This document shows positions 14-33,457 of a DNA stretch of 42,926 bases, piece after piece. The translations under genes and the position numbers were made by a program. The notes under the pieces are model-generated. The model had not been told where the DNA came from, made no database searches, and saw nothing but the letters and a program-made list of their open reading frames with translations. Every line of letters starts with the position of its first letter. The first letter of the stretch is position 1. The stretch is taken from positions 1 through 42,926 of IMG/VR virus record IMGVR_UViG_3300037467_001770; one strand, written 5' to 3'. Origin of the DNA: a virus. Lineage: Duplodnaviria > Caudoviricetes.

Positions 14-334
14 TCACGCGACCGGCCATCCATCGGCGCCGATCCGCTTACGTGGCTTGAAGCCCTTCTGCTCCATCGTGATCCGTTCGTGGCAGTCGTG
101 ATTCACCGCCTCCAGGTTGGACGGATCATCGATCTGCTCCTGGGTCCATCCCATGCATTCAGCCTGGGCCTTTGGAACCTTGTGGTTCACCTCGTTGGCA
201 GGCAAAGGAAGGAAGCGCTTGGAGCACTCGCTGCACTGGCACAGCCCTTTGTCACGAGCCAAGATGAAGAGCCGCAACTTCCGCCACTTCGGGCCGTACC
301 CGCGGGCTGCGCTGCTTTCCTTGCTCCATGCCAT
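14..334 (-). CDS. HNH endonuclease, HK97 gp74-like terminase cofactor
   Basis: RGYG..W.KLR..IL.RD..LC..C...EVNH...NL...CH..T and GADGWP tail; last late-region gene, adjacent to terS on the circular map. Confidence 0.9.
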   Translation of the reverse strand: MAWSKESSAARGYGPKWRKLRLFILARDKGLCQCSECSKRFLPLPANEVNHKVPKAQAECMGWTQEQIDDPSNLEAVNHDCHERITMEQKGFKPRKRIGADGWPVA

Positions 335-1157
335 AAGCAGTCGGCTTCCAGTCCAGTTTGGCGCCCTTGGCTATGTTGTCAGCTGCCCAGAGTGGGCGAT
401 AGTTGGTGAAATGATTGAGGCGGACGACGTCTTCCGCTGTCACCGCTGTAGCGAGCGGAACAATGTGATCCAGGTGCCATTGCTCTCGGTTCGCCCACGT
501 CATCCCCGACAGGAACTGACTTTCAATGTGCGCCTTGAATGCTTCGAACGAGCAGCCAAGAATTGCCTCAGTTTCCGCGCTCTTTGCGATTGCGACTGAC
601 CGGAAGGCATTTGACATCAGCGACCGCAGGCGTTTCTTGAGGGCGAACATTTCGTCCTCCTTCAGCTTCTCCTTTGCCCAGCGGTTCTGCCGATCCGTAA
701 CCTTTTGACGGTTGGCGGCCACGTATTCGCGCTTCTCGGCATTCAACCGATCTCCGTGGCGCTCCCGGCGCTTCCTTCCGTGCTCGCGCAGGTACTCACG
801 GATACCGCCTCGGTTCTCCGCATAGTTCTCGCGCAATACAGCGTTCTGGCAGCCGCTGCACTTCCTGGCTCGATGCCCGTCCTTCAACCGGAAAGCAGCC
901 AGGTCGAGCGTCTGGCTGCATGCCACACATTCACGCTTCCCCTGCTTCTCCAGCTCAGCATTCCTCGCCCGCAGGTCTTGGCCGGCCTGCTGCCCGGGCA
1001 GTTTGGCGTACCGTCGGTTCTGCGCCTTGTTAATGCATGACCGGCATGACTTGGTGGCGTAGCGTTTGTCGCCAGCTTTCTTCAAAGGGAACTGCGAAAC
1101 GTGCTGCTCACAGCCGCACTTCGCGCAGACCTTTGTGTCTTCCGGGATCGTTGCCAT
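252..1157 (-). CDS. Free-standing HNH homing-endonuclease-like protein with two N-terminal Cys4 zinc fingers
   Basis: CxxC...CxxC twice, charged helical linker, C-terminal LGCS..F..HIE.QF..GMTW.N...WHLDHIVPL...NHFTN..PLW..DN..K. Confidence 0.8.
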   Translation of the reverse strand: MATIPEDTKVCAKCGCEQHVSQFPLKKAGDKRYATKSCRSCINKAQNRRYAKLPGQQAGQDLRARNAELEKQGKRECVACSQTLDLAAFRLKDGHRARKCSGCQNAVLRENYAENRGGIREYLREHGRKRRERHGDRLNAEKREYVAANRQKVTDRQNRWAKEKLKEDEMFALKKRLRSLMSNAFRSVAIAKSAETEAILGCSFEAFKAHIESQFLSGMTWANREQWHLDHIVPLATAVTAEDVVRLNHFTNYRPLWAADNIAKGAKLDWKPTAYGMEQGKQRSPRVRPEVAEVAALHLGS

Positions 1158-6907: not shown

Positions 6908-7129
6908 TCACCCCGCTTGAAGTTCAGCAGCCAAGGACATTGCCGCGCGCGCCGGCAGGCGCTGGTTCTTGATCGCGGCATCGGTGAGTGCCTTGCCATA
7001 CGCGGCAAGCCACAAATCTTTGTCAGGCAGGAATTCAGGCGGGCAGGTGTCAGCCAGGCGGCCAGCAGCCACTGCAAGTTGGGCGTTATCGCGGATGCGC
7101 TGGCGGGACATGAAGACGTCGGCCATCAC
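6908..7129 (-). CDS. Hypothetical protein
   Basis: Coupled to the cII-like gene. Confidence 0.6.
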   Translation of the reverse strand: MMADVFMSRQRIRDNAQLAVAAGRLADTCPPEFLPDKDLWLAAYGKALTDAAIKNQRLPARAAMSLAAELQAG

Positions 7130-7632
7130 GCCACCCGCAGAGAACTGGATTGCGCGGCAAAGCGCTGGCGCGCGCGCTCACGAAGTTCGGCAAAGGCGGC
7201 CATCGCTTCCTGAAACTCGCGCTCGATGTTGTCCATCTCGGCCAAGGTCAGCTTGCCATCGGCCAGTGATTCATTCAGCACGCGCGCAACGTCGCCGCTT
7301 TCGGTCATCACCTTGAAAACAGCCTGGGCGAGCTGTTCATCCGAAAGGTGGTCAGCGGCCGGCATCGGGAAGGCGATCAGGTTGTGGCGCCAGTTCATGG
7401 CCAGCAGCGGCAGAGTCGCGCAATCGACCTTTGCCTCCTGCAGGAATTCGACGATACGCGAGGCTTCTTCGAACGTGATGTGGTGGGTCTTCACGCCAGG
7501 CGCAAGCTTTGAGCGCAGCACATTGGCCGACATGTCCATGCGCTGGGCCAGCGCTTCAATCCCACCCGGGTATTCACGCGCCGCGTTGTAGAGGGCGTCG
7601 TGCTGGTTCATGTCGGTGTACTGGCGCGTCAT
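7126..7632 (-). CDS. cII: CII-like phage regulatory protein
   Basis: YPGGIEALAQRM.MS..VLR.KL.P...H HTH, E.GDV......LADG..T..E; position after cro. Confidence 0.75.
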   Translation of the reverse strand: MTRQYTDMNQHDALYNAAREYPGGIEALAQRMDMSANVLRSKLAPGVKTHHITFEEASRIVEFLQEAKVDCATLPLLAMNWRHNLIAFPMPAADHLSDEQLAQAVFKVMTESGDVARVLNESLADGKLTLAEMDNIEREFQEAMAAFAELRERARQRFAAQSSSLRVA

Positions 7633-7807
7633 GTAGAAATCCCCTTGAATATTGGCGTTTTTCAATCTTTCCCCTCTGCCTATCCTTCCCATCAACAATT
7701 CAAGGGAGGTGGCGATGCTTCTTGTTCTCGTGGCGCTTCACAGCGCGGAACCCGGTTTGATCTGCTGCTACTCAGTTGACATTCATCAAACTGCGGCAAT
7801 CGGGCTC

Positions 7808-7903: not shown

Positions 7904-8137
7904 TCAGATGACTTTGTCGGGGGCTTTGCGGCGGTCGGGGCCGGCGCGGCGGTCGGGGCCGCGCTTCTTCAGTTCGCTCAGGAACAGGTCGGGGCGAGAA
8001 GCGGCGAAGAACTTCATCCACGAGACAGGGATGCGCCCGGATGTCGCCCACTGAGAAATGCGGCCTTTGGAAAGCCCAGTCATCTCCATGACCTTCTTCC
8101 TACCGCCCAGAGCATTGATGATGTTTTCACAGTCCAT
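7904..8137 (-). CDS. cro: Cro-like repressor with GPDRR-repeat tail
   Basis: IINALGG...V....GLSKGRISQW...G.IP; divergent from cI. Confidence 0.85.
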   Translation of the reverse strand: MDCENIINALGGRKKVMEMTGLSKGRISQWATSGRIPVSWMKFFAASRPDLFLSELKKRGPDRRAGPDRRKAPDKVI

Positions 8138-8142
8138 GGCTA

Positions 8143-8207
8143 AGTATAGTGTTCTAAACCGCCGCGAGTCAAGCACTCTAAACCATCGAAAGTTTAGATT
8201 CCTAGAC
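8143..8207. promoter_or_regulatory. OR operator region (three 16-bp operators) with PR and PRM
   Basis: GTATAG-N4-CTAAAC 8144-8159, GTCAAG-N4-CTAAAC 8168-8183, GTTTAG-N4-CTAGAC 8192-8207 (24-bp pitch); PR on minus strand TTGACT-18-TATACT; PRM -10 TAGATT at 8195-8200. Confidence 0.85.
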
Positions 8208-8621
8208 ATGAAGAATCTGCAAGAACGATTGCGTGAAGTGCTGGAGGCCGGCTATACCCAGAAAAACTTAGCCACGGCGAGCGGCCTGACGAAGGCCGCC
8301 ATTAACCAGATGCTTTCTGGCGCAATCAAGTCCATAAAGCTAGAGAACGCCCAGGGCATCGAGCTGCTCACCGGGTTCCGGGCTGAATGGGTCGTCACGG
8401 GAAAAGGCGAACAGCGCGGAGGGCTGGCGCGTCGTGTCACGCCACCCGAAGAGACTGTCGAGCAAGCTGACGAACGAATTGCTGCCGCCAGCGCCTTGGA
8501 GGGTGCCGCACTGATACTGTCCGTTTATGCGTCGCTGCCCACAGAAAAGAAGAAGGACCTACTGGGGCTCGTCCGTGATTTTGGTGAGCAATTCGGAGTT
8601 ACGAAGAGGACCAGCCTCTGA
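8208..8621 (+). CDS. cI: CI-like XRE repressor lacking the S24 autopeptidase domain
   Basis: LQERL......TQ.NLA...GLTKAAINQ...G...W...GKG; 137 aa with short helical CTD; no SD, probably leaderless. Confidence 0.85.
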   Translation: MKNLQERLREVLEAGYTQKNLATASGLTKAAINQMLSGAIKSIKLENAQGIELLTGFRAEWVVTGKGEQRGGLARRVTPPEETVEQADERIAAASALEGAALILSVYASLPTEKKKDLLGLVRDFGEQFGVTKRTSL

Positions 8622-8741
8622 GCGGCCCGACAGGATCAACCGCCGGGCTCGCGAAGTGAGGGAGTTGTAGTAGAAGTCTCTCATTTCCGGCTCGACCACC
8701 CGAAACGCTTCGACGAGGATTTTTTCTTGCTGACTAAGCAT
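8559..8741 (-). CDS. Putative SOS-induced antirepressor (60 aa)
   Basis: SD-like GGAG/GGGA before ATG 8741; downstream of a LexA-boxed promoter; overlaps the cI 3' end convergently. Confidence 0.6.
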   Translation of the reverse strand: MLSQQEKILVEAFRVVEPEMRDFYYNSLTSRARRLILSGRSEAGPLRNSELLTKITDEPQ

Positions 8742-8829
8742 TTGCTGTCCCACTCCGATTTCTTTTTATCATCAGACCAGTGCTGTGGTTCATGGGAGGT
8801 ACGATGCCACCCTGTCGGGGAACAGAACA

Positions 8830-8873
8830 CTGTATGCGCATCCAGTATAACCAGAATGCAAAAGCTGACGCAA
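8830..8873 (-). promoter_or_regulatory. SOS (LexA) box overlapping a sigma70 promoter
   Basis: CTGT-ATGCGCAT-CCAG at 8830-8845; minus-strand TTGCGT-18-TATACT, with the -10 overlapping the box. Confidence 0.8.
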
Positions 8874-9238
8874 TGCTGAAGAAATTTCAAACAGTCTCGA
8901 TTGTTTCTTGCCTATTCGTCATGGGCTGTGCGACTCCGCAGTCACTTCGGCAGGAGATCACGCCCTCCGCCTACACCAGCTCCCGCGGCTCGAAAGAAGT
9001 GGCTATCTGCATCGCAGACGGTTTCGAGGCCGGCGGGTATGCGGCGCCCGTAAACATGCGCCCCACCAGGGAAGGCTACGCGCTCACAGTCGCAACCGGG
9101 TCAAGCGCGGCAGGCGTGCTGGTCGACGTATTGGATGTTCCATCCGGCTCCAAGACGAACTATTACGTCGGCCCAATGATCGTTACGCCGGGTATGAGTA
9201 AGACAGTAAGCGAGTGCCAGCAGGGATCCGCAAGGTGA
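8873..9238 (+). CDS. Lipoprotein moron (possible superinfection exclusion)
   Basis: MLKK + hydrophobic stretch + VMG-C lipobox; between cI and PL. Confidence 0.75.
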   Translation: MLKKFQTVSIVSCLFVMGCATPQSLRQEITPSAYTSSRGSKEVAICIADGFEAGGYAAPVNMRPTREGYALTVATGSSAAGVLVDVLDVPSGSKTNYYVGPMIVTPGMSKTVSECQQGSAR

Positions 9239-9683: not shown

Positions 9684-9708
9684 ATCCCGCTTCGGCGGGA
9701 TTTTTTTT
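9684..9708 (+). terminator. Intrinsic terminator
   Basis: AUCCCGC-UUCG-GCGGGAU followed by a long U-run. Confidence 0.9.
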
Positions 9709-9716
9709 GCCCCGTG

Positions 9717-9757
9717 GTTTAGAGTTCTTGACTATCCGTAGTTTAGTCTTCTATACT
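9717..9757 (+). promoter_or_regulatory. OL operators and PL promoter
   Basis: GTTTAG-N4-CTTGAC 9717-9732 and GTTTAG-N4-CTATAC 9741-9756; TTGACT-18-TATACT. Confidence 0.85.
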
Positions 9758-19754: not shown

Positions 19755-20669
19755 TCACAACGAAAGATCCGGCCGCAGCCGCGAAAACACGGCATGCCGC
19801 AGTTTGCCGTGCAGTATCTCGAAGTACCGTACTTCGCAGACAATGCGCGGCGTCACCCAGACCAGCTTATAACTGGGTGGATTCAAGACTTGAGGCGAGA
19901 GTGTTATCAGCCCCTGTAGCTCTATTTGCAACGCGGCCGCATCCCGACGTGGCATTGCCGCCCCTACCCTGCCGACATACCGCCAGCCTTGATCCGTCGG
20001 CTCTGCCAGAACAAGCGCCTGGAGCCCGTCGCGGTTGGCCAAGTAGCCGACGATCGCATAGTCGCCGGTCTTGAACGGCTTGACCTTCAGCCAGTCCTGG
20101 GTGCGCTTGCCAGGGGAATATCGGCTGGCTTTCCGCTTGGCGACCACGCCTTCGAGCCCTGCAGCCAAGGAGGCATCATAGAGGGCCGGACCATCGTCTT
20201 GGCTATGCACCAGCTTCACGAACTCGCCCTCAACCAGGGCAGATTCCAGCAGCCGCCGGCGCTCGGTATAGGGCAGATCGCGCGGATTCTGGCCGTCCAG
20301 ATGCAGGATGTCGAAGCAGTAGAAGGCGACGTTGTTCTTGTGGGCTGACTTGGCGCCGAAGCGCGTCTGCAGCTCAGCGAAGGACTGGCGGCCGCTGTCA
20401 TCGAAGGCGACCAGCTCGCCATCAAGGATCAGGGCTTGGTGAGGCTGATGGGAGAGTTCGGCGCACAGGCCGGGTAGCAGGCGGGCAACGGATTGACCGT
20501 TTCTGGTGAGGATGCGCACCTGGCCCGCTTGTAGGTAGGCGATGCCCCGGTAACCGTCCAGCTTGGGTTCGAAGGCCCAGCCATCGGCGCTGAACGGCCG
20601 CTCTGCGATGGCAACGGCCATAGGCTCGATCAGTTTGGGGAAGGCTTCCTTCGGAATATCACCGGACAT
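19755..20669 (-). CDS. ATP-dependent DNA ligase (LigD/LigC-type ligase plus OB domain)
   Basis: EPKLDGYR, LDGELV, FDIL, EGVVAK, WLKVK, LRHAVF..LRPD motifs. Confidence 0.92.
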   Translation of the reverse strand: MSGDIPKEAFPKLIEPMAVAIAERPFSADGWAFEPKLDGYRGIAYLQAGQVRILTRNGQSVARLLPGLCAELSHQPHQALILDGELVAFDDSGRQSFAELQTRFGAKSAHKNNVAFYCFDILHLDGQNPRDLPYTERRRLLESALVEGEFVKLVHSQDDGPALYDASLAAGLEGVVAKRKASRYSPGKRTQDWLKVKPFKTGDYAIVGYLANRDGLQALVLAEPTDQGWRYVGRVGAAMPRRDAAALQIELQGLITLSPQVLNPPSYKLVWVTPRIVCEVRYFEILHGKLRHAVFSRLRPDLSL

Positions 20670-32563: not shown

Positions 32564-33457
32564 TTAATCATTGATGGAATTCGTGCGAACGCCATAGCGG
32601 GACTCCTGCCTCTTTCTGATGGCTTCGGCTGACATTTTTCTTCCCTTGCCAGCTTCGCTAAGCTTCCGACGATGTTCGGCCTTGCGTTCTTCCGACATGC
32701 CTTGCATGGTCTTGCGGCGCTTTTCAACAGCGGCCGGATCGGCCTTTCTCCCGGTGAGAGTTGCGCTTATCTTGGCTCTCATTTCCGGCGGCTTTGCCCT
32801 TCCCTTCTGGGCTTCGCTGATCTTTTTCTTGGTTTCATCAGATACGGAGTGCCCGAGCATAGAAGCGGCGCGCCGAGCAATTTCGTCTGCCGGCTGCTTC
32901 CGCCCGGTGAGCGACGCTCGTTGCTTTTCGATCGTCTCTGGCGACCTCTTCTTGCCCTTTAATGCGGCGCTGATGCGGGCCCGCCGCTCTTCAGAAAACA
33001 CCAGGCCGACGCGAGCCGCTGCGGATGCGGCAATGTGCTCGGGAGACTGCTTATACCCCCGCATGGCGGAACTCATCTTCATCCGGTTCTCCGGGGAGAT
33101 GCCTCGCCGCTTCGCGACCTCGCTCATGAGCGCGCGCGTTTCCGCGGTACGAACAACGCCAAGGGCACTTCCGGCGGTCGGCGCTATGTTGTAGCCGGCG
33201 TTTACCGCATTGAGCGAATCAATCCAGAACTGCTCTCGCTCGATCAGCCGCTCTTTCTCCGGAACGACTTCGACGATCTCAAATGCAAATGCGGACTCTC
33301 CGTACTTCACCCAGGCGCGCTGCAGCTTTTGGTTGTCGTGCGTCGCGTACCGCAACTGCCACTTATGCCGCGCCCAACGCTTTTTGAAGTCGACCGCGCT
33401 CCCGATGTAGAGCTTCCCATTCACGCTGTTCGTGATTGAGTAGATTCCACCGGCCAT
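32564..33457 (-). CDS. GIY-YIG homing endonuclease with NUMOD3 repeats
   Basis: GIY.I.N..NGK.YIGS, R...H, N..LQ.AW.KYG...F, E Q.WI, GYN; repeated S.ET..K.S...KG motifs. Confidence 0.92.
   Translation of the reverse strand: MAGGIYSITNSVNGKLYIGSAVDFKKRWARHKWQLRYATHDNQKLQRAWVKYGESAFAFEIVEVVPEKERLIEREQFWIDSLNAVNAGYNIAPTAGSALGVVRTAETRALMSEVAKRRGISPENRMKMSSAMRGYKQSPEHIAASAAARVGLVFSEERRARISAALKGKKRSPETIEKQRASLTGRKQPADEIARRAASMLGHSVSDETKKKISEAQKGRAKPPEMRAKISATLTGRKADPAAVEKRRKTMQGMSEERKAEHRRKLSEAGKGRKMSAEAIRKRQESRYGVRTNSIND

What the first reader, a model, noticed from the sequence alone, without database searches (positions are those of the whole stretch)
8208..8873. SOS-boxed antisense mini-gene that may mimic the C-terminal domain of a non-cleavable CI
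Seen: CI is only 137 aa with no S24 peptidase domain, so RecA autocleavage is unlikely. A near-consensus SOS box (CTGTATGCGCATCCAG, 8830-8845) overlaps the -10 of a minus-strand promoter. That promoter faces a 60-aa ORF (8741-8559) whose 3' end overlaps cI head-on by 63 bp. Its start, LSQQEKILVEAFRVVEPEMRDFY, has the same helical pattern as the CI tail, ALEGAALILSVYASLPTEKKKDLL. Known: LexA-controlled antirepressors exist (186 Tum, N15 AntC), and SinI inactivates SinR by mimicking its oligomerisation domain. Inference: a compact induction switch that combines a dominant-negative CTD mimic with convergent antisense transcription into cI.
Basis: partly seen in the sequence, partly recalled or inferred. 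Interest (0 to 1): 0.85.

Follow-up and report, generated by a model that had tools for sequence, protein, structure and literature searches.

The report
SOS-switched repressor-tail decoy gene
A soil phage whose repressor lacks the usual self-cutting domain carries, tail-to-tail with the repressor gene, a tiny gene behind a host DNA-damage (LexA) site; it is likely a divergent member of an unannotated family that resembles the repressor's own tail and would wake the phage by jamming the repressor, a logic already shown in Bacillus phages.

Summary
Observation confirmed: a 137-aa peptidase-less CI, a convergent 60-codon ORF overlapping it by 63 bp, and the window's best SOS box over a leftward promoter. 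No close relatives were found, but the layout recurs. Related betaproteobacterial prophages carry a family of 50-80-aa helical proteins, without convincing PHROG or PDB match, convergent on short CIs: 20 of 20 checked pairs overlap in the same codon register, 18 of 18 partner repressors lack S24, and the family profile matches the CI tails (HH probability 75%, E 2.4e-5). One subfamily keeps the SOS box (4 of 4) and shows protein-level purifying selection. The window's ORF is a weak, divergent member: best of 953 window segments with one profile, marginal with another, lacking the FP and LxLV motifs. Only 4 of 15 genomic modules have an SOS box, and a rightward promoter ties by match count. Best reading (0.6): LexA-released antirepressor that displaces the CI C-terminal partner; binding is untested. 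Antisense action is probably secondary. The same architecture is described for Bacillus AimX/AimC (bioRxiv 2025), so this is a new, arbitrium-free Gram-negative variant rather than a new principle.

The parts
7126..7698 (-). CII-like regulator (CP76 family); longest ORF shown, likely start further in
   Evidence: Pfam PF06892 E 8e-35, phrog_101
7904..8137 (-). Cro-like gene, 77 aa
   Evidence: weak P22_Cro and YdaS hits below cut-off; position divergent from cI
8143..8172 (-). PR-like promoter TTGACT-18-TATACT
   Evidence: 10 of 12 matches
8154..8207 (.). Predicted OR operator half-sites CTAAAC (8154, 8178), GTTTAG (8192), CTAGAC (8202)
   Evidence: the hexamer and its complement occur 5 times in the window, all at OR or OL; none at the mini-gene promoter; operator role inferred
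8208..8621 (+). cI repressor, 137 aa, XRE HTH plus short helical tail, no S24 peptidase
8517..8594 (+). CI C-terminal segment (residues 104-129) that aligns weakly to the mini-protein family profile; predicted oligomerisation hairpin
   Evidence: 2.6 bits, 52 of 3000 shuffles reach it; low-confidence model with helices 84-107 and 112-128, pLDDT 45
8559..8741 (-). 60-aa mini-gene, predicted antirepressor; helix 4-14, break, helix 18-38; cI stop lies opposite its codon 41
8753..8756 (-). SD-like GGAG, 11 nt before the ATG
   Evidence: sequence
8828..8847 (.). SOS (LexA) box, core 8830-8845, covering the end of the -10 and the predicted start site of the leftward promoter
   Evidence: 14 of 20, best in window; 5 of 5 lexA loci from hosts of related modules carry the same motif at 15-16 of 20
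8844..8873 (-). Predicted leftward promoter TTGCGT-18-TATACT
   Evidence: 8 of 12 matches; same geometry found in 74 viral loci by pattern
8873..9238 (+). Lipoprotein-like accessory gene (label from the signal-peptide-like start; family of unknown function)
   Evidence: phrog_914 E 1.6e-8
9684..9757 (+). Terminator (9684-9701), OL half-sites GTTTAG (9717, 9741) and PL-like promoter TTGACT-18-TATACT (9728-9757)

Best explanation
The peptidase-less CI gene has, tail-to-tail and overlapping it, a 60-codon gene behind a LexA-type box; DNA damage would lift LexA, and the small helical protein likely binds the CI C-terminal hairpin in place of a second CI subunit, which would break repressor oligomers and start lytic growth. 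Shown: layout, box, lack of S24, recurrence of the module, profile likeness of the family to CI tails. Inferred: promoter direction, translation, binding and induction. Convergent transcription into cI may add a little but is likely not the main switch.
For: Module recurrence: among 84 loci of related phages (65 viral, 19 genomic; 1,215,529 bases) the family profile hit 4 loci at E<1e-5 (L105, L082, L084, L097), all beside short CIs, none beside the 21 distinct long CIs of the viral set (long = judged by length and by eye; Fisher 3/14 vs 0/21 p=0.056 without the window). In 401 genomes of the family of Herminiimonas, 29 had a hit, 14 of them by construction; of the best locus in each, 15 lie convergent on an HTH gene (14 by threshold, L237 by eye). 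18 of 18 partner repressors scanned lack S24. 20 of 20 pairs overlap in codon register, with the cI stop read antisense as the Leu/Ser at or within 2 residues of the LxLV motif (19 by script offset, L097 by eye); the window has the same register. Mimicry: family profile vs CI-tail profile, probability 75.5, E 2.4e-5, 29 columns, score 25.3 against at most 13.9 in 200 column shuffles and 7.4 reversed; 12 of 12 cognate CI tails score at p<=0.03, against 3 of 11 other short CIs. Real protein: in four L105-type loci codons 1-38 change mostly silently (syn:nonsyn 11:3, 18:4, 17:12, 21:6, 14:14, 18:12) and the box is kept 45-48 nt upstream in 4 of 4 while the flank beyond is 45-53% identical; 54 clusters at 50% identity. 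Window ORF: top of 953 six-frame segments, 12.3 bits, 0 of 3000 shuffles, with a profile that excludes it; helix-break-helix model, pLDDT 88. Only 5 boxes of 14/20 or better in the 1.2 Mb, 3 at cI-mini modules including the window's own copy. Precedent: AimX/AimC and SinI/SinR (abstract).
Against: The window ORF matches the family only over residues 2-22, lacks the FP and LxLV motifs, scores 3.5 bits (36 of 3000 shuffles) and is not in the top 5 window segments with a second profile from 52 database representatives, 2.1 bits with the 7-member profile (96 of 2000), and ranks sixth at E=0.2, behind an unrelated segment, among 26,570 segments. The CI-tail profile recognises neither the window ORF (-0.4 bits) nor the window's CI tail (-1.1 bits). 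No BLASTP alignment between ORF and CI. No close relative of this ORF or CI was found, so its own conservation is untested. 11 of 15 genomic modules have no SOS box within 800 nt, so the family is not generally LexA-controlled. A rightward promoter ties at 8 of 12. Short amphipathic hairpins resemble each other easily; 3 of 11 unrelated short CIs also pass.
Confidence: 0.6

Rival explanations
1. The SOS promoter works through RNA: convergent transcription or antisense pairing shuts cI down, and the window's ORF is a decayed passenger.
For: Head-on overlap of 63 bp and no terminator-like site between the box and cI on the minus strand before 8286; the window ORF has lost family motifs. A LexA-controlled antisense RNA at lambda oop is recalled, not from a call.
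Against: Relatives show protein-level selection outside the overlap; cI-free copies exist; in phi106 recoding the overlap had no effect and a stop allele abolished the response; a stable, uncleavable repressor would fall only by dilution (inference).
Confidence: 0.13
2. The box controls the rightward lipoprotein-like gene (or both directions), and the minus-strand ORF is incidental here.
For: AGAACA-16-TATAAC ties at 8 of 12 and lies directly before the gene at 8873; such an ORF arises in 2.6% of shuffles.
Against: The rightward -10 lacks the final T and the -35 lacks TTG; in relatives the box stays beside the mini-gene while the gene on the other side changes or is absent (L166, L167, L168, L169); the phage has no other recognised route to SOS induction.
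Confidence: 0.12
3. The protein is real and SOS-induced but acts on another target: a co-resident prophage's repressor, Cro, or as a co-repressor that tunes rather than destroys CI.
For: Family copies occur in tandem without a cI beside integrases and ORF6N genes (L242, L243); Gifsy antirepressors act across prophages (PMC3121763, abstract passage).
Against: The fixed in-register pairing with cI in 20 of 20 loci and the absence beside S24 repressors point to the cognate CI.
Confidence: 0.1

Closest known systems
AimX/AimC of Bacillus phage phi106 and other extended arbitrium systems (bioRxiv 10.1101/2025.11.23.689978; abstract, passages, sections 7, 9, 10 read)
   Same: Short non-cleavable HTH repressor with divergent cro-like gene; small convergent ORF overlapping its 3' end antisense; LexA site upstream in some members and absent in many; antirepressor binds the C-terminal oligomerisation domain.
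   Different: No AimR/AimP pair seen near the module here; Gram-negative CTG-N10-CAG box; sequence-level likeness of the antirepressor family to the repressor tail is detected here, while the sections read describe AimX as divergent and report no such homology; fixed codon register; homology to AimX was not tested.
SinI/SinR of Bacillus subtilis (PMC3163267, abstract read)
   Same: Small protein sharing residues with the repressor's two-helix oligomerisation domain, forming a heterodimer.
   Different: Chromosomal biofilm switch under Spo0A, not a prophage or SOS switch; no sequence match to solved structures was found for this family.
Gifsy GfoA/GftA antirepressors with 136-aa GfoR/GtgR-type repressors (PMC3121763, passages read)
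   Same: Uncleaved short repressor, LexA-controlled small antirepressor, Gram-negative lambdoid prophage.
   Different: The Gifsy antirepressor unit lies far from the immunity region, beside a dinI homologue; no tail mimicry in the passages read.
Coliphage 186 Tum (recalled; also named in earlier finding e1-274496)
   Same: LexA-repressed promoter driving an antirepressor.
   Different: P2-like phage, gene remote from cI; the mini family has no PHROG match shared by its members.

Membership tests
cI-linked mini-protein family found here | Convergent overlap with a peptidase-less CI in codon register | tested here: met
   63 bp, register 0 as in 20 of 20 relatives; 1 in 3 by chance for one locus
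cI-linked mini-protein family found here | N-terminal ExxLLxx(Y/F)RxMxPxAR hairpin | tested here: inconclusive
   12.3 bits, 0 of 3000 shuffles with the 18-member profile; 3.5 and 2.1 bits with two other profiles
cI-linked mini-protein family found here | (F/W/Y)P then LxLV opposite the cI stop codon | tested here: not met
   cI stop lies opposite Ser41, followed by no LxLV; only an LIL stretch at 35-37
AimX/AimC extended arbitrium module | aimR and aimP upstream of the small ORF | tested here: inconclusive
   the genes upstream are a 121-aa phrog_914 protein and a 126-aa unknown, no AimR-sized ORF within 2 kb; no dedicated AimR search run
AimX/AimC extended arbitrium module | Short uncleavable repressor, convergent overlapping small ORF, LexA site | tested here: met
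AimX/AimC extended arbitrium module | Direct heterodimer that blocks operator binding | not testable with these tools
   needs two-hybrid, SEC-MALS, EMSA
SinI-type oligomerisation mimic | Residues conserved between antirepressor and repressor C-terminal helices | tested here: inconclusive
   met at family level; weak for the window pair
Lambda-type self-cleaving CI | S24 peptidase domain | tested here: not met
LexA regulon | CTG-N10-CAG box over a promoter, recognised by the host LexA | tested here: inconclusive
   motif met and used at 5 of 5 lexA loci of related hosts; the window's host is unknown and binding untested

The most novel reading that the evidence does not exclude
Betaproteobacterial lambdoid prophages use an unrecognised, widespread antirepressor family born from a copy of the repressor's own C-terminal domain, locked in register onto the 3' end of cI, whose upstream control box is swappable (LexA in some, other host palindromes in others), and which cI-less mobile elements carry in tandem arrays to wake helper prophages in trans.
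Probability: 0.3. Interest if true: 0.8.

Novelty: new variant of a known kind. Interest (0 to 1): 0.58.

Why it matters
15 of 36 distinct repressors seen in the viral relatives are short and cannot self-cleave, and how such prophages are induced is usually unknown. A recognisable antirepressor family next to cI gives a direct, testable answer for part of them, shows that the AimX/AimC and SinI/SinR logic likely extends to Gram-negative phages without arbitrium, and points to non-SOS induction signals through the other upstream boxes.

Tried and rejected
Close homologues of the ORF, CI and CII: only the window's own record or an identical copy; phage tblastn gave only N-terminal HTH hits or noise. 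ESM Atlas: scores under 0.9 for the ORF, generic XRE clusters for CI. Promoter-plus-box pattern scan: 74 viral loci, only the window's copy had a convergent CI; my 'Tum-like' label for 30 of them was recalled and not confirmed (phrog_8554/698, unknown function), so it is dropped. Pfam VirD1 and FliG_C hits to the ORF are below cut-off and rejected. PDB sequence and Foldseek searches: nothing significant. Single-sequence CI model: pLDDT 45, not used for folds. Complex prediction of CI 80-137 with ORF 1-45: no answer, score 0.05 against a mark of 0.32, controls not folded; neither for nor against. Sequencing runs: no RNA holder listed; contigs of four DNA runs showed no variant letters. Search of 299 scored genomes of the Paraburkholderia family: 15 weak hits, of 5 inspected only L194 looked like a module. 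The ATCCCAT-N4-ATGGGAT palindrome was not assigned to a regulator. Literature: six searches found no description of this family in proteobacterial phages; the library lacks most subscription papers, and the supplements of the bioRxiv preprint, which list AimX sequences, could not be seen.

Full report
Setting. The window is a 42.9-kb virus record, 91% complete by CheckV, with integrase, RecE-like exonuclease, replication, NinB/NinG, terminase and major head genes: a lambdoid temperate phage. Its host is unknown; the 19 genomic relatives of a neighbouring 357-aa gene (phrog_3657) lie mostly in Burkholderiales such as Cupriavidus, Paraburkholderia and Herminiimonas.

Observation. All stated features are present. 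cI (8208-8621) has an HTH and no peptidase; the record holds no S24 or M78 peptidase. The 60-codon ORF 8741-8559 overlaps it by 63 bp. The SOS box is the best of 19 CTG-N10-CAG sites (14 of 20 against a recalled consensus; next 11). The leftward promoter shares -10 and spacing with PR and PL. A rightward candidate ties at 8 of 12, though without TTG or the final T. The putative operator hexamer occurs only at OR and OL, so the mini-gene promoter is predicted to be outside CI control.

No close kin. Searches with the ORF, CI and CII returned only the same sequence, and four DNA runs showed no variants. The ORF's own conservation could therefore not be tested.

The layout recurs. I fetched 65 related viral loci through the 357-aa gene and listed their repressors: 14 distinct short and 21 long ones, with a 15th short one, L097, noticed later. 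Two short-CI phages, L105 and L082/L084, had a convergent overlapping ORF with a similar start; I picked them by eye, so the seed was chosen for resemblance. Profiles from these, without the window's sequence, found 54 clusters at 50% identity and hits in 29 of 401 genomes of the Herminiimonas family, 14 by construction. Taking the best locus per genome, 15 lie convergent on an HTH gene and 14 do not (L237 by eye; one of the 14, L231, comes from unpublished genome G086). Of 18 partner repressors scanned, none has S24 and 12 have an HTH-type hit. In 84 phage loci the profile hit only beside short CIs (3/14 vs 0/21, p=0.056). In 20 of 20 pairs the overlap (30-117 nt) is a multiple of three and the cI stop is read antisense as the Leu or Ser at the start of the family's LxLV motif. 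This points to one ancestral gene pair. The window shares the register but not the motif.

The family is protein-coding. In four L105-type loci, codons 1-38 outside the overlap change mainly at third positions and often silently, whereas codons 39-76 change at first positions, the wobble of cI on the other strand. The working part is thus the N-terminal hairpin and the overlapped tail drifts. The SOS box is kept 45-48 nt upstream in 4 of 4 while sequence further up is 45-53% identical. Among the 15 genomic modules, 4 have a box of 16/20 or better within 45-214 nt and 11 have none within 800 nt; 0 of 14 cI-free loci have one upstream (p=0.057). Background is low: 5 boxes of 14/20 or better in 1.2 Mb, 3 at modules, of which L097's is 739 nt away with a gene between. 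Five of five host lexA loci carry the same motif.

Mimicry. The 18-member mini profile aligns to a 12-member CI-tail profile over 29 columns (probability 75.5, E 2.4e-5; score 25.3 against at most 13.9 in 200 column shuffles). All 12 cognate tails score at p<=0.03, against 3 of 11 other short CIs; some of the 12 are close relatives. For the window pair the signal is weak: ORF 12.3 bits (0 of 3000 shuffles, first of 953 segments) but over residues 2-22 only; CI tail 2.6 bits (52 of 3000); two other mini profiles give the ORF 2.1 and 3.5 bits; the CI-tail profile recognises neither; BLASTP finds nothing. AlphaFold with 19 sequences models ORF residues 1-45 as helix 4-14, break, helix 18-38 (pLDDT 88).

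Mechanism. Most likely (0.6): LexA represses the leftward promoter in the lysogen; after damage the small protein would occupy the CI tail's partner site, CI oligomers would fall apart, and PR and PL would fire. Layout and family statistics are shown; direction of transcription, translation, binding and induction are inferred. The RNA-only rival (0.13), the rightward-promoter rival (0.12) and an other-target rival (0.1) remain.

Comparison. It works like AimX/AimC. In phi106 a 29-aa ORF lies just downstream of a LexA site and overlaps the short, uncleavable aimC by 30 bp antisense; recoding the overlap had no effect, a stop allele abolished the response, and AimX forms a heterodimer that blocks oligomerisation, which the authors liken to SinI (bioRxiv 10.1101/2025.11.23.689978; abstract, passages, sections 7, 9, 10). 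Many of their systems also lack the LexA site. It is not filed as a member: no arbitrium genes are seen and homology was not tested. SinI/SinR supplies the precedent for shared residues (PMC3163267, abstract). Gifsy phages supply LexA-controlled antirepressors of 136-aa repressors, encoded far from cI (PMC3121763, passages). A review of phage small proteins (PMC11323111, passages) showed no such family in the passages read. Six literature searches found none for proteobacteria; members have no shared PHROG, none of 10 representatives passed a Pfam cut-off, and no PDB match.

Verdict. A real, recurring induction module; a new variant of a known kind. Interest 0.58.

Noticed in passing
L178 (G168), L181 (G331), L188 (G143), upstream of the mini-gene: Modules without an SOS box share another palindrome, ATCYCAT-N4-ATGGGAT; it occurs 2-3 times per genome in these three and not in two others, once before an nrdR-like gene (label by eye). 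Regulator unknown.
   Followed up: partly
L183, L184, L187, L082 upstream of the mini-gene: Repeated TGTAAC/GTTACA words, possibly a third control motif.
   Followed up: no
L242:6946-7797, L243:7486-8317, L244:7490-7998: Two or three tandem copies of the mini family with no adjacent cI; L242 and L243 also hold an integrase and an ORF6N gene, suggesting mobile elements that might act on other prophages.
   Followed up: partly
L185 (G300), L192 (G213); P0051: The mini domain fused to the N-terminus of a longer protein, and a protein with two copies of it.
   Followed up: no
L006, L008, L013, L025, L062 and similar: SOS-boxed promoter pointing head-on into a short Arc/ribbon-helix-helix-like gene (label by eye); L097:5156-5443 has a similar gene between its box and mini-gene.
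   Followed up: no
L095, L096, L103, L106, L152, L163: A second group of short CIs with a different tail and no mini-gene or SOS box nearby; their induction route is unexplained.
   Followed up: no
window 19755-20669 (-), 32564-33457 (-), 252-1157 (-): ATP-dependent DNA ligase near the integrase, a GIY-YIG-type homing endonuclease among the tail genes, and an endonuclease VII-like gene.
   Followed up: no
window 8797-8875 (+): GGGAGG followed by an in-frame ATG at 8804 could extend the lipoprotein-like ORF upstream across the SOS box.
   Followed up: no
L233:1132-1515: A CI tail of this group hits Pfam PF24409 (wHTH-PRTase associated) just under cut-off, a lead for the tail's wider family.
   Followed up: no
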